From a virus (taxonomy: Duplodnaviria; Caudoviricetes): a stretch of DNA of 64,000 nucleotides. Each line of letters starts with the position of its first letter. Within the stretch, counting starts at the first letter, position 1. Shown here one piece after another: positions 11,910 through 51,397 of the stretch. The stretch is taken from the IMG/VR virus record IMGVR_UViG_2622736592_000004, positions 1 through 64,000 of that record, one strand, 5' to 3'. The notes under the pieces are model-generated. The model saw only the letters and a program-made list of their open reading frames with translations, made no database searches and was not told where the DNA came from. Position numbers and translations under genes: made by a program.

Positions 11910-12518
11910 TCAGCCTTGTTCGCCGTGCTCGAATCGGGCCGAACGGGCGGCACGGTAGGCGGCGTCCACTGCATGGTCCAGCTTCAGGTATGAGCCGTCC
12001 GCAGATTTGATCAGCTTGGCGGCTACCCGCTTGAGGCTGTCGTCGTTTAGGTGCAGAAAGCTGGGCATGCGGAGAACTCGGCTGGGTCCGATCGGCACCA
12101 CCCCCTCTGTGGGGGAGATGAACACGTACTGGATGTGAAGATGTCCGTCCAGGGAGGCGATGCGGCTGTGCCAGATGGGGTGTCCCGGTTCGGGGACGTC
12201 GCCGAGGAACAGGATGCCGTGGTGAATCTGCTCGGAGTTTTCGGTGGGCAGCTCACACGCGGCTACGGCGGTGCGGCATAGGTCGCGGGTGGTGAGTTTG
12301 CCTTTCACCTCTACCCACTGGTCGAAGTCGGGCAGGTAGAAGTCGGGCAGGTAGCGGTCGCCGGTGGACAGCTCGTAGCCCTCGGTTTCGTACTGCCAGG
12401 TGATGCCGAGGTTGTCGAAGAAGACTGCCCAGCGTGCCTCCAGCCGGGAGCGGAAGCGGCAGCCGGCGTACCTGGTTTCGATGGGCTTGGGTGCGGTCAT
12501 GTGGCCTCCGGTGGTCAT
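11910..12518 (-). CDS. PD-(D/E)XK family nuclease
   Basis: FRSRLEARWAVFFD..WQYE..YLPDFYL..WVEVKG. Confidence 0.85.
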   Translation of the reverse strand: MTTGGHMTAPKPIETRYAGCRFRSRLEARWAVFFDNLGITWQYETEGYELSTGDRYLPDFYLPDFDQWVEVKGKLTTRDLCRTAVAACELPTENSEQIHHGILFLGDVPEPGHPIWHSRIASLDGHLHIQYVFISPTEGVVPIGPSRVLRMPSFLHLNDDSLKRVAAKLIKSADGSYLKLDHAVDAAYRAARSARFEHGEQG

Positions 12519-13807
12519 ACGCGGGCGTTCCAGTCGATGTTGGGGTCGTGGGAGTTGGTGAGAATGCGGGTGCCGTCGGGGCGCTGGGTGTAGCCGGGTC
12601 GTAGGGGTTCTTTGGTTCGCTGGCTGGTGCGGGGTTGCTCGTTGCCGCGTGCGAGACGGTCGCTCCGGCAACCCCCGCAGCGGCGTGAGGGGAGTCCGGG
12701 GTGGGTGCGGCATTTGCCGCGTCCGTCGTTGGTGCAGTCGGGGCAGTCGGTGGTCTTCTCGGCGTCGCTCTCGTGCACAAGCCGGATGGTGACTTTGCCG
12801 GTGTCGCGGCAGGTAGCGCAGTGCAGGGCGGTGTCGTCGTCCGGTGCGGGCTCGTCGGCGTCCAGGGCGTCAAGGGCGTCTTGGATGTGCACGGTGAGGT
12901 CACCGGTGCTCTGGACTTTCCGCCACCAGCCGGGGCCCTTGTCGGGGAACTTGGCTTGCAGCCACGCGGACACGTCGGGTGCGCGGTCGACGGGGCATCC
13001 GGCTTCGACGACGAGCCGTTGATGCCAGGTGAGGTTTGGGTCTTCTGACTTAGTCGACTCGTCTCTCTCTCGATCGTCGGCGGGGTCGCACGGAGGTGGA
13101 ACGGACGTACGAGCAGAGAGAGAAGAGGGTTGGTTTTCTTCTTTACCGGGTTGGTGCTGGGTAGGTATAGCGGAACTGGTTGCCCCGTGACTCACCCCTC
13201 CATTGCCCCGTGACTCCTCAGTCGCGGGAACTGGTTGCCCCGTGTCTCCCGTGGCATCACCCAGACTCACGGGGGTGTTGGTGCCCCGTGACTCACGGGG
13301 GCGGCGTTGCCCTGTGCTCTTGTTGCGGTTCTTCTCCTTGACGGCCTCGATCTCGGCGTCGATCTCTTCCTTGCTGCGAACCTTGGCGATCTTGTCGAGA
13401 TCGTGGGGGACAGTAAGCCGGTACTCGCCACCGTTGCCCTCCCGCTCCGGGGTGGTCACGCCGCCGCCGCGCTGCACGAGGGTGAGCAGCTTGTAGGCGC
13501 ACAGGGTGCGAAGGATGCCCTTGGCCGTCTTGTAGTCGACCTCGCAGGACACGGCGATGCGTGCCGGCCCCAGGTAGACCTGACTGCCGTCAGCGTTGCC
13601 CCAGTAGGAGGCGCGGAATGCCACCCCCTTGAGGCTCTTGCCAGCGGGTCGCTTGATCGGCTTGCCAGCCGAGTCGACGAGTTCGGGGCTCTCGTCGAAG
13701 TCGATGCTGGTGACGATGCGCACCCACTCGTAGCTGCCGACTGCACGCCGGTCCGACTCCCTGCTCACGCGCGCCGCCGGGGGCTGCGTGGGGAAGTCAC
13801 GGGGCAC
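12515..13807 (-). CDS. Phage replication initiator (N-terminal wHTH, internal iterons, C-terminal Zn motifs)
   Basis: wHTH-like YLGPARIAVSCEVDYKTAKGILRTL; low-complexity linker encoded by direct repeats; CATC, CPDC and CGGC motifs. Confidence 0.7.
   Translation of the reverse strand: MPRDFPTQPPAARVSRESDRRAVGSYEWVRIVTSIDFDESPELVDSAGKPIKRPAGKSLKGVAFRASYWGNADGSQVYLGPARIAVSCEVDYKTAKGILRTLCAYKLLTLVQRGGGVTTPEREGNGGEYRLTVPHDLDKIAKVRSKEEIDAEIEAVKEKNRNKSTGQRRPRESRGTNTPVSLGDATGDTGQPVPATEESRGNGGVSHGATSSAIPTQHQPGKEENQPSSLSARTSVPPPCDPADDRERDESTKSEDPNLTWHQRLVVEAGCPVDRAPDVSAWLQAKFPDKGPGWWRKVQSTGDLTVHIQDALDALDADEPAPDDDTALHCATCRDTGKVTIRLVHESDAEKTTDCPDCTNDGRGKCRTHPGLPSRRCGGCRSDRLARGNEQPRTSQRTKEPLRPGYTQRPDGTRILTNSHDPNIDWNARV
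13172..13320. repeat. Iteron array / putative replication origin
   Basis: (T/G)TGCCCCGTGACTC-like units at 13180, 13203, 13235, 13281 and 13307. Confidence 0.75.
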
Positions 13808-27762: not shown

Positions 27763-28536
27763 TCACAGGTCGATGCGGTACTCCAACTGCACCCCATCAC
27801 CCGGATACACGATCTCCCGAGCCACCTCCACCACCCGCTCGCCGGCAAGCATCTTCCGGGTGATCGCCAATACCGGCCCCGCCGACATGCGCAGCGTCTC
27901 CGCCTCCCTGGCGTCCGGCATCCGCGACACCACCGTCTCCACCACTCGCGTCACCCGCACCCCCAGCGATGCCAGATGCCCGATCGCCCCACCCGGTGCC
28001 GGCTCCGACTCCGGTCCCGCCACCCACGTCCCGGCCACCATGTCCGCCAGGTAGTACGACGTCGACATGTGCGTTGGCCAGCCATCCACCCGGAACACCA
28101 GATCGCGGCGCACCAGAGGCGTGCCCTCGGCCACCTCGAATAGTTCGGCGACCTCCGCCGTAGCGGGCTCTTCGGTGATCACCGCGTCGGGGTTGTGCTG
28201 CCCCCATGCGAGGCCGTAGTCATGCGTGACCGACGTCTGCGGGCGTTCCTGGGTGGAGTCCACGTCGGCGCGGTAGCGGGATGAGGCGAGACGCCGGGCG
28301 GGAATGCGGGGGCGCACAAACGAGCCCCGGCCCTTGATGGTGTGGATGCGGCCTTGCGCGCGGAGCACGTCGAGGGCTTGGCGTGCAGTGTTCCGCGCGA
28401 CCTGGAATTCGTTCTGGATGTCCTTGTCGGAGGGGAACGGCATGCCGTTGCCGAGGATGCCCGCGTCTATGCGACGCCCCAGTTCGTCTGCGATCTGGGC
28501 GTAGCGGGGGCGGGGGTCGGCTTCCATGCAGGTCAC
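27763..28536 (-). CDS. GntR/HutC-type repressor with UTRA domain (KorSA-like)
   Basis: PRYAQIADEL...FPSDKDIQNEFQVARNTARQAL..GRGSFV; UTRA-like C-terminus; divergent from the tra operon. Confidence 0.9.
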   Translation of the reverse strand: MTCMEADPRPRYAQIADELGRRIDAGILGNGMPFPSDKDIQNEFQVARNTARQALDVLRAQGRIHTIKGRGSFVRPRIPARRLASSRYRADVDSTQERPQTSVTHDYGLAWGQHNPDAVITEEPATAEVAELFEVAEGTPLVRRDLVFRVDGWPTHMSTSYYLADMVAGTWVAGPESEPAPGGAIGHLASLGVRVTRVVETVVSRMPDAREAETLRMSAGPVLAITRKMLAGERVVEVAREIVYPGDGVQLEYRIDL

Positions 28537-28627: not shown

Positions 28628-30289
28628 TTGTCCTGTCTCGTGACCAACCACGCGAGCGTCCTCCGCATCCCCGACCCGGGAGAGCCCACCCAGTGGCATG
28701 TGCCGCCGGCCCCCGAACCAGGCATGCTCGACCACGCCACCGGCTGGATCACCGACTGGTTCACCAACCCCGACAACACCATGACCACCGTCGCCGTCGC
28801 CCTCGGACTGCTCCTCACCGCCAAGGTGCTCCGCCGACGCCGCAAGCCCACCACCAACCAACCCACCGACGACCTCACCGCCACCGACCGGGCCATCACC
28901 CGCATCAGCGCCGGCATCGCCACCGTCGTAGTCGCCCTCGGCATGTGGCAGTTCTTCACCGACGTCATCGACGTTCACTGGTCGGTGCGGCTCGTCCTGT
29001 TCTTCTTCATCGAACTCGGCATCTTCGACGCTGCCCGCCGCGCCACCCGCCACCTGTACCGCCACGGCAACCTCGGCAACGCCCACCGGGCCGTGTTCTT
29101 CCTCGCCGGAATCTCAGCCGGGCTGTCCGCCATCCACGCCGACAGCCTCGACCTGCGGCTGTTCCGGATCGCCGCCGCCGTCGTCGCCTCCTACATGTGG
29201 TTCGAGAGCCTCCGCGAGCAGCGCGACATCCTCCACCACCGCAACCCCGGCAAGTACCCGCCCATCACCAGCCGGGGCATCCCGTGGAAGCGCATCGGCG
29301 CGACCCTCGGCCTGGTCGAAGCAACCACCCTCGGAGTCACCGAAGTCGCCACCCAGCGGCGCATCGACCGCCTGTCCCGTCTCCTCAACCACTTCCACGC
29401 CGTCACCGCCGGCACCGACCCCGGCCGCGTCAAGCAGTGGTACATCAGCTTCCTCACCCGCCGGGTGGTGCGGAAGACGCAGGCCGCCTGCAAGTACATC
29501 AACCTCGCCGAGGACCCCGAGGTGCGGAAGATGCTGCTGCGTCGCCTCAACGTCGTCCGGGGCATCGTGGAAGCGACGAAGCCTGACGCCACCCGCCACG
29601 GTGACGTGTGGGCCGACGTCACCCAGATCGCCACCGGCGACGCCGACCGTCACCGTCACGTCATCGACGTTGACGTCACCACCGACGCACCGACGCCCAC
29701 CGTCACCCGTGACGCCGACGGTGACACCCCGAGGGTGACGCCCCCGCAGACGCCTACCGTCACCCGTCAGCCTCCGACGCCCGTCACCCCGCATACCGTC
29801 ACCATCGACGGTGACGCCACCCCGGCAACCGTCACCAGTGACGCCACCGCCGACGCGCCAACCATCACCGTCACCACCGCTGACGCCACGCCCGCCACCG
29901 TCACCCGCCGGCCCGTCACCGTCAGACGCGCCAGCACTGACGTCGCCGTCGTCCGACCCCTCAGCCGCGACCTCCTCGACGAGCGGGTCCGCGACTGGAC
30001 CGTCGACGAAGTCCGCGACTACGCCGCCGGCAAGGCCCGGCAGATCGTCGCCGGGGGAGGCACCAAGAAGGAAGGCATGCGCGTGTTCCTGCTGCTCTGC
30101 ATGGCCCTCGGCGTTGACCCGGCTGGCACGTGGATGGCCGAGCCGGTGGAAGGCGCTGAGTCTGCGGCCCGCACCAACAAGGCGAAGTGGTTCGCCGAGT
30201 GGGCCGTCTACGACGCCGAGCAGATCCTGCTCGCCGAGCACAACAAGATCGTCGCCGAACTCGCCGACGGGGGTGACGTCCGTGCCTGA
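28628..30289 (+). CDS. Spd-like polytopic membrane protein with VT-rich linker and possible C-terminal DNA-binding domain
   Basis: About 5 hydrophobic segments; GTCAC-encoded linker; first gene of the tra operon; start uncertain. Confidence 0.65.
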   Translation: MSCLVTNHASVLRIPDPGEPTQWHVPPAPEPGMLDHATGWITDWFTNPDNTMTTVAVALGLLLTAKVLRRRRKPTTNQPTDDLTATDRAITRISAGIATVVVALGMWQFFTDVIDVHWSVRLVLFFFIELGIFDAARRATRHLYRHGNLGNAHRAVFFLAGISAGLSAIHADSLDLRLFRIAAAVVASYMWFESLREQRDILHHRNPGKYPPITSRGIPWKRIGATLGLVEATTLGVTEVATQRRIDRLSRLLNHFHAVTAGTDPGRVKQWYISFLTRRVVRKTQAACKYINLAEDPEVRKMLLRRLNVVRGIVEATKPDATRHGDVWADVTQIATGDADRHRHVIDVDVTTDAPTPTVTRDADGDTPRVTPPQTPTVTRQPPTPVTPHTVTIDGDATPATVTSDATADAPTITVTTADATPATVTRRPVTVRRASTDVAVVRPLSRDLLDERVRDWTVDEVRDYAAGKARQIVAGGGTKKEGMRVFLLLCMALGVDPAGTWMAEPVEGAESAARTNKAKWFAEWAVYDAEQILLAEHNKIVAELADGGDVRA

Positions 30290-30701
30290 CACCACCGACG
30301 CCAGCGACGTCACCGTCATCCCCGACCGGTGGGACCGTCACCCCACCGTCACCCACCACGACCTGACCGCCGACGGCGTCACCACTGACGCCGTCATCAC
30401 CGGCGGACTGACGCTCCACCGCGCACGCCGTCACATCCGCGCCGCCGTCACCCGTGACGCTGACGCCGCCCTACGCGGCATCCGTCACCTACTCGCCCGA
30501 GACCGTCACACCGTCACCGAGGAGGACTGACGCCATGACCACTGACACCCTGCCCGCCGCCGTCACCGACGCCGCCGCACCCGTCACCCTCGACGGTGCA
30601 CGTGTGCACCGCGACTGGCGTCAGCTCGGCGCGGAAGCCGCCGGCATCACCACCGCCGTCACTGCCGCCGGTGCCCTTTACACCGCCACCTTCCAGGTCA
30701 C
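29601..30701. repeat. GTCAC/GTGAC (core CCGTCACC) repeat field, candidate clt/centromere-like site
   Basis: About 33 copies counted by eye in two blocks (29601-29920, 30273-30701) spanning three genes. Confidence 0.75.
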
Positions 30702-31756
30702 GCCCGTCCTCATGTGGGCCCTCGCCGTCGGCTGTGCCGTCGCTGTCGTTGCCCTCATCGTGCTGCTCACCCTCATGCGGCGGGAGGGTCGACGGTGGAC
30801 CCTCGCAGTCGACGTCGACCCGTCCTGACCAGCGCAAACGCCACGGAGAGAGGAACCAGGAAATGCCGAAGCTGTACGAGTTGCGGGTGTTCAAGGGTCA
30901 GCAGCCCGTCCGCGTCGCCAACCGGCTGCTCGTCACCCTCGACCTCGCCGACCCGGCCAGCGTGAATGACCTGCTCAGGCGGCATCTCCTGGCCATCGCC
31001 GAGCGGGACGGCGCGACCCGCCGCGACGCGCACCTCTACCACGTCAACGTCCACGAGGTCCGCAACGAACGCGCCGAACGCGACGCGTCCTTCCAGTTCA
31101 GCACCCCCGTGGAGGTGTGACATGTCGGTCAAGTCGCTGCGAACCAAGGCCAGCAACCGGGCCGCCACCGCCCAGGCGCGAATCAACTCCACCGCCTCCC
31201 CGTACGAGAAGCTGCGGCACGCCCTGGAGTGGGTGATGTCCGAAGCGAGAGCCGCCGGCAGGGACACCGCACAGGACACCGTCGCGACGATCACGAAGGT
31301 TGCCCGCGAACTCAACGAAAGGAGCCGGCCGTGACCGAGAGTGTTGTGGCACTGCCACATGGCACCGCAGTTGGCGGGTCCGACAGCCCGCGCGCGTCTG
31401 CGCGCGCGAGAGTCAACCGAAGTGTAACCCGCCGTGACCGTGTTCGTCGCGTCGGGGCGGCCCGCCCGGTCGCCGCAGCCCGCCGCATCGGCCGTGTCAT
31501 GTACCGCGACGCCGCCGACTCGTGGATCGTCCGCGACTCCACCCCATCGATTCAGCAGGTGTGGGCCACCGATTACGCGGCCCTCACCACCATTGACTAC
31601 CCGCCGTTCCGCATCTGGTGCCGCTTCTGGCGGTACCCGGCGGTCCTCGCCGCCGCCGGCCTCGACTCGGCGAAGTGGATGCTCATCCACCCCGTACGCG
31701 GCCCCCTGTTCCTCACCGCCACCGGCGTCGGCGTCGCCGCCGCCACCACCCTCTAA
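30282..31756 (+). other. Five small tra-operon genes (30282-30530, 30535-30828 TM, 30863-31120, 31122-31334, 31331-31756 TM)
   Basis: Tightly coupled ORFs with RBSs. Confidence 0.65.
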
Positions 31757-32183: not shown

Positions 32184-33584
32184 ATGATCGAAATGATTCT
32201 CGGTGCGATGGTCGTCGCCCTGTGGGTGAAGGCCGTTCCCGCCGCCGTCGCCGACGCGATCGCCACCCTCCGCGCGTCGAAGGCCGGCGAGTGGGGGCTG
32301 ATCGACAAGGAGCGCGACCGGAAGGCCGCCCGTTCTAAGGCCCGCCGCGACGCCATCGCCTCCATCCGCTCGAAGCGTCACAAGCAGGCCGGCGGCGACG
32401 GCAAGGAGTACCGTCCCGGCGCGCTGGCGTACCTCTCCGACGTGTACCACGGCCTGTGGGAAGACGAGTTGGAGAAGCGCCGTGCAAAGCGGGCCGCGCG
32501 TCCGCCCGTCGGCCCGGACGGGAAGCGTCCGCCGGTGAGCCGCGTCGACCAGGCGGTGGAGGCGAAGGTCCGCCAGCAGCGCGCGAAGACCGGCTACCTG
32601 GGACGGGCCGCCCGCGCTCTCATCGACCCGGTAGGGGAGAGCCCGCAGCACGCTGACGTGCCCACCACCCAAATCTGCCCCGTATGCCTGCATGTAATGA
32701 CCGTCGGCGAGGAATGCGAGACGTGCGCGTTCAACCGCCAGCTCGACCAGACGACGCGGCAGACCCTCGCCGAGCACGACCAGCGGAGGGCGGCCACCAC
32801 CGCAGAGGACGGCCCCCGCATCGCCTGCCCCACCTGCGGCGACAACCTCATCCAGGGCCGCGACGGCTGGTACCACCGCTCCGACTCGCTCTGCAAGGAC
32901 GTACGGCCGGGCGGCGGGCCGGACTACCCGAGCCGGGAGGTCACCGCCCCCCTCGACGGGGGACGGCAGCCGGGCAGCACCCGCGAGGCGTCGCGGGACC
33001 ACGACCTTGACGACGATGACGACATCAGCCTCACCGGCGACAAGGTGATCGCCGGCCTCGCCGGGCCCGGCGGCCTCTTCGAAGGTGTCGCCGAGTGCGG
33101 CGGGTGCGGCTTCCAATTCGAGCAGGTCGGCGACGAGCTGCGCTGCGCATGCAGCACCCAGCCCACCATCAAGACCCCAGCCCACATCCACAACACCGGC
33201 ACGACCGACAACGGAGGAACCGACATGAACACTGCCACCGGCGACGTCCACGACGTGGAGTCCTGCAAGACCGAACTCACGGCCCTCGGCGACGACCTCA
33301 CCCGCGTCGACACTGCCCTCGACGTCATCGACGAGGCCATCCGGTCGGCGAAGGCCGCCAGCGAGGCCATCGAGGCGTGGCTGCGGGACAAGAACGCCGA
33401 CGCCTGCGTGCCCGGCATGAGCGCCGCCCTGGACGCCCTGTCCACCGACCGCATCAAGGAACTCATGGACGCCGTCGCCGCCGCCCGTCGGGGAGTCGCC
33501 GACACCATCGACAACCTCGCCCCGCTGGAGGAGGCGGCCGAGCTGATCGGTGGCACCGACGGTTCCGCGCTCAACGGCCGCTGA
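32184..33584 (+). CDS. TraA-like protein (N-terminal TM, Zn ribbons, C-terminal helical bundle)
   Basis: Directly upstream of the FtsK-like ATPase; CPVC, CETC, CPTC and CGGC motifs; internal GGAGG RBS before ATG 33225. Confidence 0.6.
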   Translation: MIEMILGAMVVALWVKAVPAAVADAIATLRASKAGEWGLIDKERDRKAARSKARRDAIASIRSKRHKQAGGDGKEYRPGALAYLSDVYHGLWEDELEKRRAKRAARPPVGPDGKRPPVSRVDQAVEAKVRQQRAKTGYLGRAARALIDPVGESPQHADVPTTQICPVCLHVMTVGEECETCAFNRQLDQTTRQTLAEHDQRRAATTAEDGPRIACPTCGDNLIQGRDGWYHRSDSLCKDVRPGGGPDYPSREVTAPLDGGRQPGSTREASRDHDLDDDDDISLTGDKVIAGLAGPGGLFEGVAECGGCGFQFEQVGDELRCACSTQPTIKTPAHIHNTGTTDNGGTDMNTATGDVHDVESCKTELTALGDDLTRVDTALDVIDEAIRSAKAASEAIEAWLRDKNADACVPGMSAALDALSTDRIKELMDAVAAARRGVADTIDNLAPLEEAAELIGGTDGSALNGR

Positions 33585-33687
33585 CGTCGGATCGTTGCCG
33601 TCATCCCCAGGCCCCACACAGGTGGGCCGCCTGGGGGTGGCGGGATCAACCCGACACCCACCCCCCATACCAGCTTGGAGCCGCCCC

Positions 33688-36099
33688 ATGCACACCACCG
33701 AGCATCGCCCGGCGAGCCTGCCGAACCGGGCGGACCCGTCCGGTGACGCTCGGCCCACCCCCGGAGACGACCCTGCCGCCACACGCCGGCAACTCCCACC
33801 CGGTGCGTCCCACTGGTCCCGCACCTACTACGACGACCAAGGCATGCAACAGGTCGCCAAGGTGTCGGTGCCTGTCACCGGACAAGGCCGCATCGCCGCC
33901 AACGAGTGGGAGTGCCCCACCTGCGGCCCTCAGTCCCGCAGGTGGATGAGCGCAACCCTGGCGACCGCCCCGTTCTGCGACCTCCACGACATGGAGATGC
34001 GCAAGCTCAAGCCCGGACGGAACCCGTCAGTAGGGGTGACACCCCCGTGGAAGGACATCGTCCGGGCCGTCGACCACCGCATCCGCGTTGGCGCGGCCAT
34101 CGCCGCCGCAGGCACCGCCGGACTCACTGTGGACGTGGTTGACATGCCGTGGTGGGGGCACGCCGCCCAGATCGCCGCGATCCCCGCCGCGATCAGCGGT
34201 TCGTGGTGGCTGACCCGAGTCTGGCTGATCCGCGAGGCGGTACGCCTCAACAACCTTGACCCCGACGACGAGGTTGCCGGCCGACGGGAACGGCGGAACA
34301 TCGCCAAGAGGGCACGGATCGCCGCCTACTGTGCCGCCGCCGGCATGAGCTGGATTGAGATCGCCGACCTGCTCAACATCGCCTCACACCCGGCCCGTGG
34401 CGTGTCCCTGATCGCTGGTCTCATCGCCGCCGGTGTGATCGCCTCACGCCCCTACCTCAACTGGGTGGACAGGCGTCGCCGGGCCAAGCCGACCCCCGCC
34501 GTCGCTGCGGCGACAGCGATGCCTGACGAGCCGCCGGCTGAGACTCCCACCGACGACGAGCAGCTCGCCGCCTACGTCACCGGACGGTGGAACGAACGCA
34601 TCTCCGCAGAGCGAGGCCCCCTGCCCGGCACCTACCTGGAGGCCATCCGCCGCACCTACGGCGGCTGGTCCGCTGTGGTCGTCGCCACCGACGAGTCCGA
34701 CCTGGACCCGGAACGCTTCGAAACAGACAAGACCATCGGCAAGATTGCCCGCGCCTACGGGGTGGGCGTGACCATGGTGACGGTCACCGCCGACCCGCTC
34801 GACGCGAACCGGGCAATGATCCTCGTGCAACGCACCTCACCCCTGTCCGAGGCCCGAGCGTGGGACGGCACCGGCATCGACCTGACCACCGGAAAGGCGT
34901 ACACCGCCTCCGTGGACGACGGCGACCGGGCGCAACACCCGTTCTGGCGTCCCGGCTGGGGTGCCGTCATGGAACTACTCGCCGGAGCAACCGGATCCGG
35001 CAAATCCGAGTACCTGAACCTGCTGCTCGCGTTGGAGCGGCAGTCAGGGGTGTGCGTGTCGTGGGTGTGCGACCCGCAGATGGGCCAGTCGCTGGGTGAC
35101 ATCCGCGACGGCGTCGACTGGTTCGCGCCCACCGTCGAAGAGTTCCTCATCATGCTGCGGGTGGCAGTGCAGGTGATGCTCGCCCGCAACGTGCTGATCA
35201 CCCGCATGAGGGTGAAGGAGACCCGCCCCAGCGGTGAAGTGGTGGAACGCCGCGTCAAGTACGTGGAGGTTTCCGCCGACTTCCCGCTGCTCGACATCAC
35301 CTGCGATGAGGCGCACATCCCCATGAACGACCCCGACCACGGCAAGGAGATCGTCGCCCTGCTGGCGTTGCTGGCCAAGTCGGGCCGCAAGTGCAACATC
35401 AAGGTGCGTCTGATCACCCAGTCGCCACTGCTGACCGAGCTGAAAAACTCGGTGCTGCGTTCCCAACTGTCGTCCGGTTTCGTGGCCGTGTTCCGAACCG
35501 CCGACAAGCTGACCGGTGCCGCCTGCTGGCCCGGAAAGATGCCCGGCGACCCTGCCCTACTCCCCGCCGAATGGCCGAACGGCAACACCGCCGCCGGAGT
35601 GTGCTACATGTCCGGGCAGAAGCCGCTGAGGCACCGCTCCGACTATGTGGGCGACGTGTACGACCTGATGCACTCCGGGGAGACGAAAGGCTTGGAGCCG
35701 GCTGTCCTCGGCGCGGCCGGTGTGCTGTACGCCGACCGGCACAAGCGGCTCGCCGCGTTCGACGCCATGGACCCCGCCGAGCTACTCGGCACGCAGATCC
35801 CCACCCTCGACCGGCCGGCAGGACAGGGTGACCCGGCGGGAGGGAAAGGCGGCGGCCGGGAGGCGGTGCTGGAGTTCTTCGCCGACCGGTGGAACAGCGG
35901 CGACGTCGACCCAATCAAGTTCGGGGTCATCGACGAGAACGTGAAGGCCGTCAAGACCCGGGCGTTGACGAACGTTCTCAACAAGCTGGTGCAGGAGCAG
36001 GTATTGGCGAACGAGACGGGACCGGACGGCAAGAGCGGCTGGTACCGGCTCACGGAGTCGGGTGCCGAGCACCTGGGCGTCGATGAGGTTGGCCTGTGA
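33688..36099 (+). CDS. traB: TraB-like FtsK/SpoIIIE DNA translocase
   Basis: N-terminal TMs; Walker A AGATGSGKS; Walker B LDITCDEAH; GRK..TQ motif; C-terminal wHTH. Confidence 0.85.
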   Translation: MHTTEHRPASLPNRADPSGDARPTPGDDPAATRRQLPPGASHWSRTYYDDQGMQQVAKVSVPVTGQGRIAANEWECPTCGPQSRRWMSATLATAPFCDLHDMEMRKLKPGRNPSVGVTPPWKDIVRAVDHRIRVGAAIAAAGTAGLTVDVVDMPWWGHAAQIAAIPAAISGSWWLTRVWLIREAVRLNNLDPDDEVAGRRERRNIAKRARIAAYCAAAGMSWIEIADLLNIASHPARGVSLIAGLIAAGVIASRPYLNWVDRRRRAKPTPAVAAATAMPDEPPAETPTDDEQLAAYVTGRWNERISAERGPLPGTYLEAIRRTYGGWSAVVVATDESDLDPERFETDKTIGKIARAYGVGVTMVTVTADPLDANRAMILVQRTSPLSEARAWDGTGIDLTTGKAYTASVDDGDRAQHPFWRPGWGAVMELLAGATGSGKSEYLNLLLALERQSGVCVSWVCDPQMGQSLGDIRDGVDWFAPTVEEFLIMLRVAVQVMLARNVLITRMRVKETRPSGEVVERRVKYVEVSADFPLLDITCDEAHIPMNDPDHGKEIVALLALLAKSGRKCNIKVRLITQSPLLTELKNSVLRSQLSSGFVAVFRTADKLTGAACWPGKMPGDPALLPAEWPNGNTAAGVCYMSGQKPLRHRSDYVGDVYDLMHSGETKGLEPAVLGAAGVLYADRHKRLAAFDAMDPAELLGTQIPTLDRPAGQGDPAGGKGGGREAVLEFFADRWNSGDVDPIKFGVIDENVKAVKTRALTNVLNKLVQEQVLANETGPDGKSGWYRLTESGAEHLGVDEVGL

Positions 36100-36830
36100 C
36101 CGTACGCCCGACCACGTCCGCACCCCGGCGGCAGGCACGACCAGACGTGCGCCGCCGGGGCGCGGTGTACGGCATCCCCACCCTCGCCGTGGACGCCCTC
36201 GGCAAACCCATCCCCGGCACCGTCGTCGTCGGCTACATCGGCCAAACCCGGCAGACCGTCAAACAACGCGAAGGCCAACACCGCGTGTCACAGCCGTTCG
36301 GTGACCTCATCGTCGGCGGCTCGTGGGTCATCGAGGAAGGGTTCTGGACGGACGCCGAACTGGACGCGAAAGAGCAGCACTACATCCGTGGCGGGGCGGT
36401 GCTGGTGCCCGGCCAAGCACCGCAGCGGCCCGTCTACAACATCGACCACAATCGGGAAAACCCGAATCGGATCCCGCCGTGGGATGCGCTGGCGCACCGG
36501 CAGGCACGAGAGCCGGGCTGGCAGCCGCCGCCGAAGGGCGCACGGATCCCCACCCAGCGGGGTGCGGCGTCCACGGTCCGGCCGCGCCCGGTGTCGCCGC
36601 TGTCCCGCTGGTGGGGTCGCCGCCGCTGGCAGGTGGTGTTGTGGGCAGCCGTGTGGGCGCTGCTGTTCGCGGGCTCGTGGTGGGTTGGTGCTGACACGTG
36701 GTCCGGGTGGGCGGAGCCCCGCAACGCGGCAGTCGCCGCCACCGTGGCCACCGCCGGCATCGGGTGGCGAGGTTGGAAGACGTCCGGGCCGAAGCGCCGC
36801 CGGTCGAAGCGTCGGGGGCGACGCCGGTGA
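36096..36830 (+). CDS. GIY-YIG-like domain with C-terminal membrane anchor
   Basis: AVYGI...GYIGQTR..QRE.QH...E..YI...PVYN; two TM segments and a basic tail. Confidence 0.7.
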   Translation: MTVRPTTSAPRRQARPDVRRRGAVYGIPTLAVDALGKPIPGTVVVGYIGQTRQTVKQREGQHRVSQPFGDLIVGGSWVIEEGFWTDAELDAKEQHYIRGGAVLVPGQAPQRPVYNIDHNRENPNRIPPWDALAHRQAREPGWQPPPKGARIPTQRGAASTVRPRPVSPLSRWWGRRRWQVVLWAAVWALLFAGSWWVGADTWSGWAEPRNAAVAATVATAGIGWRGWKTSGPKRRRSKRRGRRR

Positions 36831-46366: not shown

Positions 46367-46776
46367 GCTGGTTGTCCTTTGCTGGTGACCGGCTCTGGCC
46401 AGCCCGCGATCAACCACACACACATCGCGAACGAACCCCACACCACCGCCGACACCCAGCCATCCGGCACATCGCCGAGGACCCAGCCCGACAGGTACAG
46501 GGAAAACCAGAGAACCTTGATGCCGATGGCGGCGGTGAACGCCACCCTGTCGCAGTTCCGCACCGACCCCAGGGCGCAGACGACAGCGATGGCGATCCAT
46601 AACACAGCCCACGGCCACAACGGGAGGATCCCGTGCAGCCAGGCGTAGAACGGCTGGGCGTCAGGGCTGGCAGAGGCGAGGCGCAGCCCGTACGCGACGT
46701 CGAGGGCGGCGAACACCAACAGGGCGGTGCCTCGCCGGCCGACCTTGTGGTGAAGCCGTGCGACCGCCCTACCCAT
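46342..46776 (-). CDS. Four-TM membrane protein (lysis cluster)
   Basis: Hydrophobic helices; coupled to the endolysin gene. Confidence 0.7.
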   Translation of the reverse strand: MGRAVARLHHKVGRRGTALLVFAALDVAYGLRLASASPDAQPFYAWLHGILPLWPWAVLWIAIAVVCALGSVRNCDRVAFTAAIGIKVLWFSLYLSGWVLGDVPDGWVSAVVWGSFAMCVWLIAGWPEPVTSKGQPAWTPPPSE

Positions 46777-47720
46777 CAGGACGGGGTGTTGTCGTCGACC
46801 CGGCCGGTGAAGGTGAACGTGGCCGGCAGCACGAGCTGCCCGGACGGACCCTGCGGGCCAGGGTCACCCTTCGGCCCCTGCGGACCCGCCGGCCCCTGAG
46901 GCCCCTGCGGGCCGGCAGGACCCGGCTGACCGGCACCGCCGTACCGCTTCGCCATACACATCTGCAACTGCACGTGACCCCACGGGTCGTACTTGTCGCC
47001 GGACGTCGCGGAACTGCCGACGCTCTTACGCATCCGCAGCACCGCAGCCGACGTGCCCTTCCCGTACTTGCCGTCCTCAGCCCCGGCCTCGAAGCCGAGG
47101 TAGTTGAGGGCGACCTGGAGGGCCTTCACGTGCTGGCCCTCATCGCCGATCTCGCAGAGCATCAGCATCCCTCCTGCTGTCGAAGTTGTGAGCCCGATGT
47201 ACGCCAGGTAGCGGCGAAACACGGGGGTCAGATCAGTGCCAGCCTTCGTGACATCCCGGAATACGCTGGCGTGCGTGTGGGACAGGTGCGACGTGTCGCC
47301 GCTCGACCGCCGCTTGAGCCGATCCCACCGCTTGACCGTCGAGCCGTCGGGGCTGTAGATGACCTCGCGGATCCACAAGGTGTCCGGTGCGCCCGCCTCA
47401 CACTCACCGACCAGCCACACGCTGAACGTGCGCAGGTTGTGCGTCTTGCCGTTGATGGTGACGCTGAACCAGCCGACATCCAGGGCCGACGCGTAGTCGC
47501 TCAGGCCCGTCTTGTCCCGCGACGACTCGACCACCGAGTAGTCGTTGGTCACCACCCGGTCAGAGCCGCAGTGGTATCCGCCCCGGTGTGCGTCGTCGGC
47601 GACGATGCCGACCTCGTTGGGTTCGAGGTCCGCCGACCGGGCTGTGCCTGGGTCCATGTCCAGATGCGTGAGGAGCAGGGAGCGGACCTGCATCAGGTTG
47701 GCTGGTGCGCGGGTCACCAC
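46776..47720 (-). CDS. Endolysin: putative Zn-peptidase, peptidoglycan-binding domain and collagen-like tail
   Basis: GYH...SALD...HTH; GDEGQHVKALQVALNYLG..DGKYGKGT (PG_binding_1-like); about 10 Gly-X-Y triplets. Confidence 0.75.
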   Translation of the reverse strand: MVTRAPANLMQVRSLLLTHLDMDPGTARSADLEPNEVGIVADDAHRGGYHCGSDRVVTNDYSVVESSRDKTGLSDYASALDVGWFSVTINGKTHNLRTFSVWLVGECEAGAPDTLWIREVIYSPDGSTVKRWDRLKRRSSGDTSHLSHTHASVFRDVTKAGTDLTPVFRRYLAYIGLTTSTAGGMLMLCEIGDEGQHVKALQVALNYLGFEAGAEDGKYGKGTSAAVLRMRKSVGSSATSGDKYDPWGHVQLQMCMAKRYGGAGQPGPAGPQGPQGPAGPQGPKGDPGPQGPSGQLVLPATFTFTGRVDDNTPS

Positions 47721-47742
47721 ATCACCTCCGAGATGTTGCCGG

Positions 47743-49215
47743 TCACGCGGTCATGTCCCACGTGATGGAGTCCAGCCACACCGACTGGCCCGACGTAAGG
47801 CTGTTGCCGAGGGTGATCTCACCGTTCGTGGCGATCTGGAGTTGCGTGCCGCCGCCCGTGTACCGGGCGATCGTCGTCACCGCCGCGAGCGGCCGATGCG
47901 CGGTCGTCGGGATGACCGCGACCACCGCCCCCGACGACACCGCCCCAGTCGCGGTCAAGGTGCCCCGCAACCTTCCGTTGTCGCCTCCTCGATCCAGCCG
48001 GGACGCCGCCGCCTTCGTGCCCAGCGCCATGTTGGTGCCCGCCGTCAGGTTCACGAACGACGTGGGGGCAGCGGACCCTCCCGCCGAACCGGTCGTCCAC
48101 GTGCCCGGGGTTCCGCCAGCCGTGCACAGGTAGACGGCACCCGCAGAGTCGAGCACCACGTCACCGGTCGTCCACGTGCCCGACGTCGGTGCCCCCGTCG
48201 TGGCGCGCTGCCCCCGCCAGTTGATCGCGGTCAAGCTGTTGTAGGAGCCGCCCGCGCGGACACCGAGCAGGCCGGCGAGGACACGGGTGGCCACAATCCA
48301 GCCGGGCTGGGTGGAGTGGGCGGTGCCGTACGCCCCCAGTAACGGTTCGCGGTTCGCGGTGACGCTCGGGTTGGTGCTGAGCTCGAAGAACCGGCCGGTC
48401 GACGGCCCGCCCTGGTTCTCGTAGAACTCGAAGAACCTGCCGCCGATCCGGTTGTTGGTCGACGGGGCCCCGCGCACCTCGCCGTTGCCGTTCGCCCAGA
48501 ACGTCTTGACCGCAGCCCCACCCGAGGTGGTCGAGAAGAATTGCAGGGTGTCCGGGTTGTTGTCGCCCGACGAATACGCCATCTGCATCCGCAGCCACGG
48601 GTTACCGGACTGGCCCTGCGTCGGATCCGGTGCCGTCGCCGCCTGCCCCACATATGCGCCACCCACCTTTGGTGGGTTGAGCAGCAGCGCGCCGGCCACC
48701 TGCGACGGCGACAGCAGCGTGAACTGGCCGCCCGACCATCCGATCACCGTGCCATCCACGCGGGCACCCAGAGCACCAGCAGACACATCGGAAAGGTTGG
48801 CCAGGCCAGTGGAGTGCGGGTTGAGGGACGCCGCATGCGCCGCCAGAGCAGCCGCGTTGTCGGCGGCCTGCTGCCCGACCTGCTGCAACCGGGAACCCAG
48901 GACGCCGACCAGCCGCACCCGAGGGCCACCACCTGCGGACGCCCACAGGTCAGTCACCTCATCGGGTGCCTGAAACGGCGGGATCTGACCCAGACCGCGC
49001 GTGCCAGTTCCGTCAGCAGACGTGACCATGGTGACCGGGTTACCGGCCTCATCCAGCAGGTCGGTGTACGCGACACCGCCCGTCTCCGCAGACCACACCG
49101 TGACCTGCTGCCCGCCCACCACCACCGACTGCGCGCCGGTGACCGTACCGACCGTCACCTCGTCGCCCACGGTGATCGTGTAGTCGGCGGCCCCACCGCC
49201 AAACCAGTACCGCAC
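47743..49215 (-). CDS. Tail fibre / receptor-binding protein
   Basis: G/S/T-rich; last tail gene before the lysis genes; GAPTSGTW..GD motif. Confidence 0.7.
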   Translation of the reverse strand: MRYWFGGGAADYTITVGDEVTVGTVTGAQSVVVGGQQVTVWSAETGGVAYTDLLDEAGNPVTMVTSADGTGTRGLGQIPPFQAPDEVTDLWASAGGGPRVRLVGVLGSRLQQVGQQAADNAAALAAHAASLNPHSTGLANLSDVSAGALGARVDGTVIGWSGGQFTLLSPSQVAGALLLNPPKVGGAYVGQAATAPDPTQGQSGNPWLRMQMAYSSGDNNPDTLQFFSTTSGGAAVKTFWANGNGEVRGAPSTNNRIGGRFFEFYENQGGPSTGRFFELSTNPSVTANREPLLGAYGTAHSTQPGWIVATRVLAGLLGVRAGGSYNSLTAINWRGQRATTGAPTSGTWTTGDVVLDSAGAVYLCTAGGTPGTWTTGSAGGSAAPTSFVNLTAGTNMALGTKAAASRLDRGGDNGRLRGTLTATGAVSSGAVVAVIPTTAHRPLAAVTTIARYTGGGTQLQIATNGEITLGNSLTSGQSVWLDSITWDMTA

Positions 49216-49239
49216 TATGACTCCTCAGGGGTGGGGTGA

Positions 49240-50172
49240 CTACAGGGGCCAGGACTTGCTGCCGCGTGCGATGACACCGGCGGCCATCGGCTCGTCCGCG
49301 CGGAGTTGCATGGTTCCGGAAGGCGCGAAGTGCGCGACCGCCGTCGCGCCGCCGAGCAAGTCGCACGACTCGCTCATACCGACCGTCGTTCGGTACTCGG
49401 CGGGAATCAGGAACGCTGTGGACAGCGCACCGGCGGCAACCGTGCTGCCGACCCGGTGGGTGTCCCACCTGCACCACACGGTGCCGTTCTTGGCGCGGAG
49501 CTTGATGCTCGTGGACGCGCCCGTCCATCCGGCCTCGGCGGTCAGGTCGATCCAGCCGGTGTCGCCGAGCAGCAACACCCACACGGTGCCGTTCGACTCG
49601 TAGCTGCGGCCGGTGTCCAGTTCCCGGATCCGCCGGCCCGGCTCGTGCGGGGGCCGGGTCGTGGACGTGCACAGCAGTTGCCCGTCCGACCCGACATACC
49701 AGGCCAGCGGGATGCACTGGCCGGCGTCGGTGACCGTGTCGTTGTAGGGGACCGTCACCTCAGCCAGCGGCAGTTCCCAAACGCCCGTCGAGGTGTCTTC
49801 CCCGTAGGTGGGGGATGGGGTGGTGGGGGTGGCGAGCGCCGACCCCTTCACCACGGCCAAGCCGATCGTCCACGGGTTTCGGGACAGCCGCAGCACGATC
49901 AGGTCCTTGCGGGTGGTGCCCGCCGTGCTGTTCGCATCGACGGTCAGGCTGACCTCGGTGTCGCCGGAGTCCCACCGCAGACCCCGCAGCAGCGCCGCCC
50001 GGGACGCCCGCACCTTCACCCCGAGCAGCGTCGAATCCGCATACACCAGCGGCGTCAGAGCAGGTGATCCGATGAGCCCATCCGGGGCCATCGGGTGCAT
50101 CAGGTCTTCGTACTCGCGGGGCGTTACCGCACGCGAGTTGTGGGCGGTGGTGGGGTACGCGTAGCCAGCCAT
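49240..50172 (-). CDS. Minor tail protein
   Basis: RKDLIVLRL...WELPLAEVTV; position in the tail operon. Confidence 0.8.
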   Translation of the reverse strand: MAGYAYPTTAHNSRAVTPREYEDLMHPMAPDGLIGSPALTPLVYADSTLLGVKVRASRAALLRGLRWDSGDTEVSLTVDANSTAGTTRKDLIVLRLSRNPWTIGLAVVKGSALATPTTPSPTYGEDTSTGVWELPLAEVTVPYNDTVTDAGQCIPLAWYVGSDGQLLCTSTTRPPHEPGRRIRELDTGRSYESNGTVWVLLLGDTGWIDLTAEAGWTGASTSIKLRAKNGTVWCRWDTHRVGSTVAAGALSTAFLIPAEYRTTVGMSESCDLLGGATAVAHFAPSGTMQLRADEPMAAGVIARGSKSWPL

Positions 50173-50190
50173 CCGCGCCTCCCCTCAGGG

Positions 50191-51387
50191 CTAGAGCGGA
50201 ACTTCGACGGTCGCGCCACGCCTGGCGAGTTGTCGGAGGATGTCGCGCTGCACGGCGGCAGCGGGGTTGAGCATCTGGGCGGAGCCGACGCCGATGACCG
50301 GACGGATCGTTTCGCCGTCGTCGGGGCTGGCCTCGATCTCCACAGCCGAGATCACGTCGGGCACGTCCGGCAGGCCCGGGTATGCCTCCACCGCGACCAG
50401 GTCCCCGAGCCGGTAGTTGACGCCGTACCGCTGGCCGTCGATGTCGGCGGCGACCACGGCGAGGCGCTGCACCTCAGCCGACCCGGCCAGATCGTCATCG
50501 ACGGCAGCCTCAAGCTCCGTCAGGTTGTCGGAACCGGCAGCGTCGATGAACGTCTCCAAGCGCCACCAGTCGCCCGGATCGCCCCGCTCGACGATGACCC
50601 GGTTCACCCCGGAGTCCTTGCCGCCGCCGATGCCGACCGTCGCCGACGGCGCTTCCGGCTCGTGTTTGATTGACAGCAGGTTGCCCATCGACCGGGAGAA
50701 CCAGATCCCGCCGGTCTTGTCTTCGGGGCCGTACACCTGGAACTCGATGGTGTCGTTGACCTGCTGGGTGCGGAACCCGACCCTGCCGCCGGCCAAGTTG
50801 ACGATGCCGCGCAGGTCGTCGGTCACCGGGGCGAACCGCGTCGACCACGACACCGGGTCACCGCCGAGCCCAGCCGGATCCCCGAGAACCAGTTGCGGTA
50901 TCCGCCTCGCAGGAAGGGCACCCGGCCCCGCGTTGGAGTTGACCAGGGAACGCATCAGGTTCTCCGGCGCGTCCGTGAACGTCCACTTGGCCACGTCCTG
51001 TGCGGTCGCCGCGAGCGCGGGGTTGGGGTAGCTGAGCCTGCCTGCGATCAGCGCCAAGTCGTCGGCGAAGCGGACCGTGAGGTCGCCGTAGCCGTCATCG
51101 CCGTGGGTGGCCGCCGACCAGTCCAGCGCCCCCGCGTACTCGATCGGTCCGGCCAGCAGGATGACCCCGTTGCGTTCGACCACGGCCCGAGCCTTGGGGG
51201 TGCGGACGGCGGTGACTACGTCCGGGTACGCCGGCACGGTGAACTCACCGGACGACACCTCGTTGAACCGGAGCGTCACCGACAGGGACGTCCAGTCGTC
51301 GACCTGCTGAGAGATGACATTGAGGTCACCGTCGGTGATCCAGATGACGTATTCGGCGGGGGTAGGTGCGGGGCCGTGAACACCCAC
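50191..51387 (-). CDS. Siphovirus Gp37-like minor tail (hub) protein
   Basis: Follows the distal tail gene; LRFNEV, RLETFID and YGVNYRLGDLV motifs. Confidence 0.8.
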   Translation of the reverse strand: MGVHGPAPTPAEYVIWITDGDLNVISQQVDDWTSLSVTLRFNEVSSGEFTVPAYPDVVTAVRTPKARAVVERNGVILLAGPIEYAGALDWSAATHGDDGYGDLTVRFADDLALIAGRLSYPNPALAATAQDVAKWTFTDAPENLMRSLVNSNAGPGALPARRIPQLVLGDPAGLGGDPVSWSTRFAPVTDDLRGIVNLAGGRVGFRTQQVNDTIEFQVYGPEDKTGGIWFSRSMGNLLSIKHEPEAPSATVGIGGGKDSGVNRVIVERGDPGDWWRLETFIDAAGSDNLTELEAAVDDDLAGSAEVQRLAVVAADIDGQRYGVNYRLGDLVAVEAYPGLPDVPDVISAVEIEASPDDGETIRPVIGVGSAQMLNPAAAVQRDILRQLARRGATVEVPL

Positions 51388-51397
51388 AAGCCACCCC

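What the first reader, a model, noticed from the sequence alone, without database searches (positions are those of the whole stretch)
29601..30701. Dense GTCAC repeat field written through three coding sequences
Seen: about 18 GTCAC/GTGAC copies in 29601-29920 and about 15 in 30273-30701 (by-eye count), mostly as CCGTCACC. They occur in both orientations and are read in different frames (VT, RH, GD/RD), cross gene boundaries, and are absent from the intervening C-terminal domain of the 553-aa protein. This pattern suggests selection on the DNA rather than the protein. Established: the TraB wHTH binds clustered 8-bp repeats (clt). Inference: this is a clt locus, or a centromere-like array bound by the membrane protein's own C-terminal domain to tether the genome to the membrane.
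Basis: partly seen in the sequence, partly recalled or inferred. Interest (0 to 1): 0.75.

Follow-up and report, generated by a model that had tools for sequence, protein, structure and literature searches.

The report
Binding-site array written into linker codons
A phage-like mobile element of a Micromonospora genome carries about 33 copies of the DNA word CCGTCACC written through the codons of a floppy protein linker and the next small genes; across relatives the word follows the tail domain of the membrane protein that this gene encodes, not the nearby TraB DNA pump, so it is probably that protein's own docking site.

Summary
There are 18 GTCAC/GTGAC cores in 29601-29920, none in 29921-30272 and 15 in 30273-30701. 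Sixteen are full CCGTCACC, all on the + strand. This is the densest such cluster in the 7.9-Mb genome.

The word is selected as DNA. It is read as VT, RH, SP and GD, uses the rare CGT codon, and exceeds synonymous-resampling expectation (CGTCAC 12 observed against 3.4).

All nine other loci whose protein carries the same rare C-terminal helical domain have a CGTCAC(C) cluster beside that domain. Eight repeat the window's two-part layout, and this holds although their TraB winged helices fall into unrelated types. A locus with the window's TraB winged helix but another tail domain lacks the word. Relatives with other C-terminal HTH domains carry other words, for example CCGGACA in all three frames.

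The TraB-clt reading is therefore not supported. Binding itself is not shown, and the domain has no recognisable fold match.

Earlier follow-ups of this scan reported the same kind of array on other DNA. I found no published description in the library searched.

The parts
27763..28536 (-). GntR/UTRA-family regulator, divergent from the transfer operon (TraR/KorA-like position)
   Evidence: Pfam GntR 4.9e-12 and UTRA 5.5e-15. It does not track the array: it was matched beside it in L046 and L058 and not found within about 2.4 kb upstream in L034.
28628..30289 (+). 553-aa membrane protein with SpdB/DUF2637-like architecture: 4-5 TM segments (aa 52-192), a basic cytoplasmic helical region, a low-complexity linker (aa ~322-437) and a C-terminal helical domain (aa ~438-553)
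   Evidence: ORF and GC3 0.91. Hydropathy. No Pfam, NCBIfam or PHROG hit. The ESM Atlas neighbours of homologue P0017 are DUF2637 and SpdB clusters, which is a lead only. Homologues reach 91% identity in Micromonospora.
29601..29920 (+). Array cluster 1: 18 GTCAC/GTGAC cores (9 full CCGTCACC) inside the linker codons
   Evidence: Synonymous resampling gives CGTCAC 12 observed against 3.37 +/- 1.59, with 0 of 1000 reaching 12.
29939..30289 (+). Coding region of the C-terminal helical domain: the motif-free gap between the two clusters and the candidate reader of the word
   Evidence: No CGTCAC in these codons; the only GTGACG is the junction copy at 30273. Only 7 representative clusters carry this domain among 1.84 billion proteins, always at the C-terminus of 490-590-aa proteins with VT/PSP-rich linkers. 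The AF2 model has pLDDT 83.3 and five helices. No significant fold or sequence match in the PDB.
30273..30701 (+). Array cluster 2: 15 cores (7 full CCGTCACC) running from the stop region of the 553-aa gene through orfA into orfB
   Evidence: In orfA, CGTCAC is 9 observed against 1.85 +/- 1.19, with 0 of 1000 reaching 9.
30273..30530 (+). orfA, 85 aa, carrier of most of cluster 2; the word is read in two frames within it (TVT and RH)
   Evidence: 67% identical in G391. DNA alignment.
30535..30828 (+). orfB, 97 aa, a small protein with a C-terminal TM helix; its N-terminus carries the last copies
   Evidence: In relatives the ORF downstream of the membrane gene is a single VT-rich protein with a C-terminal TM helix.
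33550..36099 (+). TraB-type FtsK/SpoIIIE-like translocase with a C-terminal winged helix; same operon, but not the protein that tracks the array
   Evidence: Pfam FtsK_SpoIIIE 0.0011, below threshold. NCBIfam plasmid_TraB 2.3e-8, 33 bits against a cut-off of 800. 33-34% identity to Streptomyces and Kitasatospora plasmid genes. C-terminal comparison.

Best explanation
The two clusters form one cis-acting array of about 33 short sites, consensus [A/C/G]CCGTCACC and mostly co-oriented with the operon. The array is maintained as DNA inside codons that tolerate it: the disordered linker of an SpdB-like membrane protein and the disordered N-termini of the small membrane proteins downstream. The most likely reader is the ~115-aa C-terminal helical domain that this same gene encodes. 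It sits on a long flexible linker behind a 4-5-TM anchor, so many copies of the protein would coat this 1.1-kb stretch and hold the element's DNA at the membrane beside the TraB pump and Spd-like proteins of the same GntR-controlled operon. The purpose would be hand-over to the translocase, spread between hyphal compartments, or retention. What is shown: the array is real, it is selected at the nucleotide level, and it co-occurs with this domain and not with TraB, the N-terminal domain or GntR. What is inferred: the domain binds the word, the domain is cytoplasmic, and the purpose is transfer, spreading or stability.
For: 1. DNA-level selection. The word is read in five contexts across nine loci: on the + strand VT 73, RH 7, SP 23; on the - strand VT 11, xD 28. 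RH copies use CGT, which is 9% of Arg codons in reference genes. Counts exceed the synonymous-resampled mean in all nine loci and exceed every one of 500 simulations in seven. A protein-driven VT repeat elsewhere in this genome sits in one frame and one orientation.
2. Conserved layout. The window and eight relatives (L034, L046, L053-L058) each have a linker cluster, then a gap of about 330 bp holding few or no copies that equals the C-domain codons, then a second cluster across the stop codon. The linkers themselves are not alignable.
3. Association with the C-domain. Only 7 representative clusters in 1.84 billion proteins carry the domain, and all have VT/PSP/GD linkers. P0004 and the L046 protein have a different N-terminal domain but the same word. 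In G011 the domain is fused to a GIY-YIG protein instead, and 8 CGTCAC follow within 660 bp against a background of about 1.
4. Dissociation from TraB. L034, L046 and L053 have winged helices unrelated to the window's but the same word. L036 shares the window's winged helix (58% identity, helix KTRA[L/C]TNA[L/V]NKLV) but has no C-domain and no CGTCACC array.
5. Generality. Relatives whose membrane protein ends in a sigma-70-r4-like HTH (G011 and L059) both carry CCGGACA arrays read in three frames, and L059 has no CGTCAC at all. L037 and L051 share another HTH and the word TCGCCA(C). Different words within one host family argue against a shared host factor.
6. Precedents. SpdA2 of pIJ101 binds sps sites inside its own gene (PMC4170104). 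SpdB2 is a TraB-interacting membrane protein that binds dsDNA (PMC4447253).
Against: No binding was tested. The domain has no significant structural or sequence match to any DNA-binding fold: Foldseek best E 0.8, VIA best Z 5.2 with only weak MarR/ArsR/DnaA-DBD rows, and no PDB sequence hit. Its net charge is about -5. The residues of the putative recognition helix vary among homologues that share the same word. The array flanks the domain-coding DNA within 300 bp, so co-inheritance by linkage would also produce the association. The loci are related, not independent. Topology is ambiguous: four clear TM segments would put the C-terminus outside, and only a weaker fifth segment (aa 178-192) puts it in the cytoplasm. 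No separate TraB recognition array was found near traB, so a role of TraB at this array through an adaptor cannot be excluded.
Confidence: 0.6

Rival explanations
1. Functional DNA array, but read by something other than the C-domain: a host factor or an unidentified element protein. The C-domain co-occurs only because its codons lie between the two clusters.
For: The association is between features less than 300 bp apart, so linkage alone predicts it. The domain is acidic, has no fold match, and has a variable putative recognition helix.
Against: Every other neighbouring gene tested is swapped or absent in some array-bearing locus: GntR, N-domain, orfA, orfC, orfE, orfF and TraB. The GIY-YIG gene also occurs with other words. 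Elements in the same bacterial family use different words, so a common host factor is unlikely. The word has been kept while the linkers diverged beyond alignment and the domain diverged to 33-40% identity. In G011 a mini-cluster follows the domain in a different gene context.
Confidence: 0.2
2. A clt locus in the classical sense: the repeats are TraB recognition sequences read by the TraB C-terminal winged helix, which loads the translocase.
For: Known clt loci are clusters of 7-9-bp direct repeats bound by the cognate Tra protein: pJV1 nine CCGCACA[C/G][C/G], pWTY27 four TGACACC, pSVH1 8-bp repeats (PMC3583192, PMC4447253). The array lies in the traB operon, is 72% co-oriented, and no other repeat cluster was found near traB.
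Against: There is a double dissociation. The same word occurs with at least three unrelated winged-helix types (L034; L046/L053; the WIN group). The same winged-helix type occurs without the word (L036). The array has about 33 sites over 1.1 kb, lies 3.3 kb upstream of traB and is inside coding DNA. The clt loci quoted in PMC3583192 have 3-9 repeats and lie beside the transfer genes.
Confidence: 0.12
3. No DNA function: the word is a by-product of a TVT/PVT-rich low-complexity linker, codon bias, or recent slippage.
For: 73 of 142 linker cores in nine loci are in the V-T frame. ACC and GTC are common codons. The region is low-complexity.
Against: About half of the copies are in other frames or on the other strand. 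The rare CGT codon is used. Counts are 2-5 times the synonymous expectation (3-5 times in the window's two clusters). The array continues into other ORFs. Spacing is irregular, so these are not tandem duplications. CCGGACA is read in all three frames within one ORF in G011 and L059. The genuine protein repeat at C3:121.4 kb looks different.
Confidence: 0.05

Closest known systems
[quoted passage not shown]
   Same: A cluster of short, mostly direct repeats on an element with a TraB-type dsDNA translocase, in the transfer region and different in each element. In pWTY27 the clt even extends 16 bp into traA (PMC3583192).
   Different: The word does not follow TraB. The array is 4-10 times larger, is written through coding DNA in several frames, lies 3.3 kb upstream of traB, and follows the tail domain of a motor-less membrane protein.
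SpdA2 / sps of pIJ101 and other Streptomyces plasmids (PMC4170104)
   Same: A Spd-region protein whose binding site lies inside its own coding sequence and shapes the peptide (SRDD/E there, VT/RH/SP/GD here). The sps palindrome is CGTCAC|GTGACG, and its half-site is the core of this word. Three composite CGTCAC-NN-GTGACG copies occur at 29701, 29830 and 30446.
   Different: No SpdA homologue in the window or genome. No full sps palindrome, even allowing 2 mismatches. There are about 33 mostly direct sites rather than 1-3 palindromes. The candidate reader is an unrelated domain on a membrane protein. The half-site match may be coincidence.
SpdB2-type spread proteins (pSVH1), also found on some actinophages (PMC4447253)
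   Same: A multi-TM oligomeric membrane protein in the spd-traB operon under a GntR regulator. SpdB2 interacts with TraB and binds dsDNA. Pfam 38.1 names a C-terminal HTH in SpdB, seen only through the ESM Atlas.
   Different: Only non-specific dsDNA binding is reported for SpdB2. pIJ101 spdB shows no word array. No HMM-level match of the 553-aa protein to any family in the local libraries.
Plasmid and phage centromere or packaging arrays that lie in the gene of their own reader (parS in spo0J; pac sites in small-terminase genes; heptad arrays bound by omega of pSM19035). These examples are cited from general knowledge.
   Different: No ParA/ParM-type partner or terminase was looked for or seen next to the array.

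Membership tests
clt / TraB recognition sequences | Cluster of short (7-9 bp) repeats on a TraB-encoding element | tested here: met
   33 cores, 16 of them full 8-mers, in the traB operon.
clt / TraB recognition sequences | Repeat sequence is specified by the cognate TraB winged helix, so it should co-vary with that helix | tested here: not met
   The same word occurs with unrelated winged helices (L034, L046, L053). The same winged helix occurs without the word (L036).
clt / TraB recognition sequences | Required in cis for conjugal transfer | not testable with these tools
   Needs mating assays.
SpdA / sps | 12-bp palindrome CGTCACGTGACG, 1-3 copies | tested here: not met
   No copy with 0 or 1 mismatch; the 5 two-mismatch hits lie outside the array and are fewer than chance expectation (11.5). 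Only half-sites and three 2-bp-split versions are present.
SpdA / sps | SpdA protein with the conserved N-terminal Cys-rich DNA-binding region | tested here: not met
   tblastn with pIJ101 SpdA2 gives a best E of 0.1 in both the window and the genome, and a regex scan found nothing convincing.
SpdB / DUF2637 membrane spread proteins | Match to the family HMM (PF10935, PF27080, PF27079) | tested here: inconclusive
   No Pfam hit at E <= 1. However, pIJ101 SpdB itself gets no hit, so the SpdB models appear to be missing from the local copy. The ESM Atlas neighbours of P0017 are DUF2637 (0.92) and SpdB (0.84-0.85) clusters, which is a lead only.
SpdB / DUF2637 membrane spread proteins | Multi-TM protein encoded with traB under a GntR (TraR/KorA-type) regulator | tested here: met
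Partition centromere (ParB/parS or type Ib/II arrays) | Adjacent partition NTPase and soluble centromere-binding protein | not tested
   None was recognised among the operon proteins scanned. The whole element was not surveyed.
Helix-turn-helix DNA-binding domains (for the C-domain) | Recognisable HTH fold or profile match | tested here: inconclusive
   The AF2 model is all-helical with an HTH-like core, GMRxFLLxCxALGVxPxGxxMAxAV. Only weak rows to wHTH proteins, Z <= 5.2. No sequence hit.

The most novel reading that the evidence does not exclude
In a whole class of actinomycete phage-plasmids and conjugative elements, DNA specificity for TraB-type transfer or spreading is not set by TraB. 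It is set by a modular 'self-addressed' membrane adaptor: an SpdB-like anchor, a disordered linker and an exchangeable DNA-reading tail, whose cognate site array is written into the adaptor's own linker codons. Tail and address then travel as one recombination cassette, and the array is the real clt of these elements.
Probability: 0.3. Interest if true: 0.8.

Novelty: new variant of a known kind. Interest (0 to 1): 0.66.

Why it matters
For most TraB-type elements outside a few Streptomyces plasmids, the cis site that marks DNA for transfer is unknown. Spd proteins are essential for spreading but mechanistically obscure, and SpdB2 is reported to bind DNA only non-specifically (PMC4447253). This locus points to a concrete, testable pairing: a defined 8-bp word, a defined 115-aa domain, and natural swap controls (CCGGACA with a sigma-r4-like HTH, TCGCCAC with another HTH). 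The pairing would assign sequence-specific DNA recognition to the SpdB-like protein. It is also a clear case of two codes overlapping, a dense protein-binding array kept in three reading frames of a disordered linker, which affects how low-complexity linkers in mobile-element proteins should be read. The domain is rare (7 clusters in 1.84 billion proteins) and has no known fold relative.

Tried and rejected
- Megablast of the module against plasmids and phages found nothing. tblastn of the C-domain against plasmids found nothing.
- The search for related loci with TraB found no close relatives in genome or viral contigs. Relatives came from the genome search, the representative search and contig look-ups instead.
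- SpdA/sps link: no SpdA homologue and no full palindrome. It is kept only as a resemblance of half-sites.
- Fold of the C-domain: the single-sequence model was poor, pLDDT 61. The alignment-based model was good, but neither Foldseek nor VIA-wide nor a PDB profile search gave a convincing match.
- A shared TraB recognition array for the WIN/L057/L058/L036 TraB group was not found in 10-kb regions.
- pIJ101 spdB has no word array, so the phenomenon is not universal among SpdB genes.
- Strand bias of CCGTCACC outside the array (14 + against 6 -) is too weak to interpret.
- The ESM Atlas could not read the window protein itself, so a stored homologue was used.
- Complex prediction was not used, because no protein-protein claim is made.
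- The GntR regulator as reader was rejected: no GntR gene was found beside the array in L034.
Full report
**Observation**

The window is G000:C12:12-64011 of a 7.9-Mb, 51-contig genome. Named homologues place it in Micromonospora. The window's GC content is about 0.69, against 0.71-0.75 for most large contigs.

GTCAC plus GTGAC total 18 in 29601-29920, 0 in 29921-30272 and 15 in 30273-30701. The 8-mer CCGTCACC occurs 36 times in the window against 8.9 +/- 3.2 expected. Sixteen + strand copies lie between 29647 and 30588.

This is the densest CGTCAC/GTGACG cluster in the whole genome. It is also by far the strongest k-mer cluster in the 64-kb window.

**Genes**

- 27763-28536 (-) encodes a GntR/UTRA regulator.
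- 28628-30289 (+) encodes a 553-aa protein. It has four clear hydrophobic segments and a weaker fifth, a basic helical region, a T/V/P/D/A-rich linker and a ~115-aa C-terminal domain. It has no Pfam, NCBIfam or PHROG match.
- Small ORFs follow at 30273-30530 (orfA), 30535-30828 (orfB, with a TM helix) and 30863-31120.
- Further membrane proteins come next, then a TraB-like FtsK/SpoIIIE ATPase at 33550-36099.
- Siphovirus tail genes (tape measure, major and minor tail proteins) and an endolysin lie at 46-58 kb. The module therefore sits in a phage-like element, a kind already known from plasmid-phages such as pZL12 (named in PMC3583192). PMC4447253 notes that SpdB2 homologues occur on some actinophages.

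**Is the word selected as DNA?**

Yes. The evidence is as follows.

- The per-copy table shows the same word read as T/P/A-V-T, as R-H and on the other strand as G/R/S-D. Relatives add S-P.
- RH copies use CGT, which is 19 of 212 Arg codons in reference genes.
- I kept the amino-acid sequence and redrew codons from the element's own usage. In the linker this gives CGTCAC 3.37 +/- 1.59 against 12 observed. In orfA it gives 1.85 +/- 1.19 against 9 observed. In both cases 0 of 1000 redraws reached the observed count. The N-terminal domain and the C-domain show no excess.
- The same test on nine homologous loci gives an excess over the resampled mean in all nine. In seven, the observed count exceeds every one of 500 simulations.
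- Spacing is irregular, with no tandem unit.
- A genuine protein-level VT repeat elsewhere in this genome (C3, about 121.4 kb, PPVVTPPVT) produces the second-densest cluster. It sits in one frame and one orientation.

**Comparative anatomy**

A family-level genome search found homologues of the 553-aa protein in 25 of 400 genomes. I fetched 15-kb regions around 18 of them and asked which 7-mer clusters most strongly in each.

The same position, the linker and what follows it, holds a different word in different elements:

- CGTCACC in the window, G391 (L034) and G116 (L046);
- CCGGACA in G011 (L035);
- CGCCACC/TCGCCAC in G384 (L037);
- GCGAACC in G205 (L047);
- CGACCAC in G023 (L050);
- a weak ACCCAGC in G312 (L036).

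In G011 the word is read in all three frames of a single ORF, as TGH/TGQ, PDT/PDM and RTS/RTP.

**Which protein does the word follow?**

tblastn of the window's proteins against these loci gave three informative contrasts:

- G391 keeps the C-domain (77% identity) and the word, but its TraB is only 30% identical.
- G116 keeps the C-domain (44%) and the word, but has a different N-terminal domain and no TraB match.
- G312 has the most similar TraB in that set (54% over the full length), but has no C-domain and does not have the word.

An exhaustive HMMER search with the C-domain found only 7 representative clusters among 1.84 billion proteins. The domain is always at the C-terminus of a 490-590-aa protein. 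All of these have VT/PSP/GD-rich linkers.

I fetched contigs for six of them. In every one, CGTCACC is the top clustered 7-mer. Each also has the same two-part layout: a linker cluster, a gap of about 330 bp holding few or no copies that equals the C-domain codons, and a second cluster across the stop codon.

Their TraB proteins range from 72% identity to undetectable. Comparing the last 140 residues of TraB sharpens this:

- The window, L057, L058 and L036 share one winged helix (58-71% identity), with helix KTRA[L/C]TNA[L/V]NKLV.
- L034 has an unrelated C-terminus, as do L046 and L053, which share a third type with each other.

So the same word occurs with three winged-helix types, and one winged-helix type occurs with and without the word.

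No neighbouring GntR gene was found in L034. The downstream ORFs share no conserved DNA-binding domain.

In G011 the C-domain is fused to a GIY-YIG-like protein instead. Eight CGTCAC follow that gene within 660 bp, against a background of about one.

**A second pairing**

G011 and L059 (P0020) both end in a sigma-70-region-4-like HTH, LTHxxIARxLxVSxKTIxRW, which scores below the Pfam threshold. Both have CCGGACA arrays read in three frames. L059 has no CGTCAC at all, although its N-terminal domain is closer to the window's than G011's is.

L037 and L051 share a third HTH and the word TCGCCA(C). The array is strong in L037 and weak in L051.

**The C-domain**

With an 8-sequence alignment, AF2 gives pLDDT 83.3 and five helices. 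The conserved core is TK..GMR.(F/Y).L.C.ALGV(D/E)P.G..MA.AV...(E/G)..(A/G)R...(K/E)W, which looks HTH-like.

However, nothing confirms a DNA-binding fold:

- Foldseek finds nothing better than E 0.8.
- VIA-wide reaches at most Z 5.2, with many weak wHTH rows such as MarR, ArsR/SmtB, CapW and DnaA-DBD. These are at noise level for helical models.
- A profile search of PDB sequences finds nothing.
- The domain has a net charge of about -5.
- The residues of the putative recognition helix vary among homologues that share the same word.

DNA binding by this domain therefore rests on the association, not on recognised homology.

**Family of the membrane protein**

The ESM Atlas places homologue P0017 next to DUF2637 clusters (score 0.92) and SpdB clusters that carry Pfam 38.1 families SpdB_N and HTH_SpdB_C (scores 0.84-0.85). 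This is a lead only. The local Pfam copy gives no hit and appears to lack the SpdB models, because pIJ101 SpdB itself scores nothing.

The architecture and operon position match SpdB2 of pSVH1. SpdB2 is an oligomeric 4-TM protein that forms pores, interacts with TraB, is needed for intramycelial spreading and binds dsDNA non-specifically (PMC4447253).

**Literature comparison**

- Known clt loci have 3-9 repeats of 5-9 bp and lie beside the transfer genes (tra, or korB in pIJ101). Those of pSVH1 and pWTY27 were shown to be bound by the cognate Tra protein (PMC3583192, PMC4447253).
- SpdA2 of pIJ101 binds the sps palindrome CGTCACGTGACG inside its own gene and affects stability (PMC4170104). 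The core of the present word is the sps half-site. Three CGTCAC-NN-GTGACG composites occur in the window.
- There is no SpdA homologue and no full palindrome, so I treat the sps link as a resemblance only.
- I found no paper in the held library that describes word arrays in SpdB-like linkers.

**Earlier notes of this scan**

After I had reached the above, a look-up showed that follow-ups on other genomes reported the same kind of array with other words. These are e1-3826237 (GAACC), e1-5355730 (CCGACAC), e1-5325647 and e1-5679754 (CGGTACCG). They are AI notes and not independent evidence, and I did not test them.

**Verdict**

- The array is a real feature selected at the DNA level (about 0.9).
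- It is not a TraB-specified clt (about 0.85 against).
- The best-supported mechanism is a docking array for the C-terminal domain of the SpdB-like membrane protein whose gene carries it (about 0.6).
- The main rival is that another, unidentified factor reads it (about 0.2).
- What the tether is for, whether hand-over to TraB, spreading or retention, remains open.

Noticed in passing
window 46776-58174 (- strand): Siphovirus-type genes: tape measure 52367-56689, major tail 57668-58174, minor tail 50191-51387 and endolysin-like 46776-47720. They share a contiguous low-GC (~0.69) region with the TraB module. The low GC continues for at least 130 kb of contig C12, and there are no tRNAs in the window.
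   Followed up: partly
window 13183-13300: Five copies of CCCCGTGA in both orientations within about 120 bp, inside ORF 12515-13807 (-). The window-wide count is at chance, but the local clustering is striking and may mark another binding-site cluster.
   Followed up: no
L038 9284-11506 (G245): About 30 copies of a 36-37-bp palindromic repeat (CCTTCACCGGCCCCTCGGGGCCGGTCACCATTGCGGC) with variable spacers of about 39 bp. This is a CRISPR-like array immediately downstream of an SpdB-like homologue.
   Followed up: partly
L035 3356-3869 and 4544-5200 (G011): One element carries two arrays: 18 CCGGACA in the membrane protein's linker, read in three frames, and a mini-cluster of 8 CGTCAC after a GIY-YIG::C-domain fusion gene (3831-4586).
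   Followed up: yes
window 30270-30290 and the same junction in L034, L046, L055, L057, L058: The stop/start overlap of the membrane gene and the next ORF is itself a conserved copy of the word (GGTGACGG/GGTGACGT). This yields conserved peptide ends, ...GGDG/GGDV and VTA(M/V)(S/T)DA..., that probably reflect the DNA rather than the proteins.
   Followed up: partly
L047, reverse complement, bases ~2811-3637 of that orientation (G205): Fifteen GCGAACC/GGTTCGC copies lie about 500 bp downstream of the SpdB-like gene rather than in its linker, in a stretch whose only ORF has an odd W/F/R-rich translation. The array therefore need not sit in linker codons.
   Followed up: no
G000 C3 ~121300-121900: A proline-rich PPVVTPPVT protein repeat gives the genome's second-densest GTGACG cluster, in a single frame and orientation. 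It served as a negative control.
   Followed up: yes
window 36096-36830: The gene overlapping the traB stop is conserved next to TraB in many relatives with different words (L034, L035, L037, L046, L050, L051, L053, L057, L058). It therefore belongs to the conserved core of the module. It has no Pfam, NCBIfam or PHROG hit here.
   Followed up: partly
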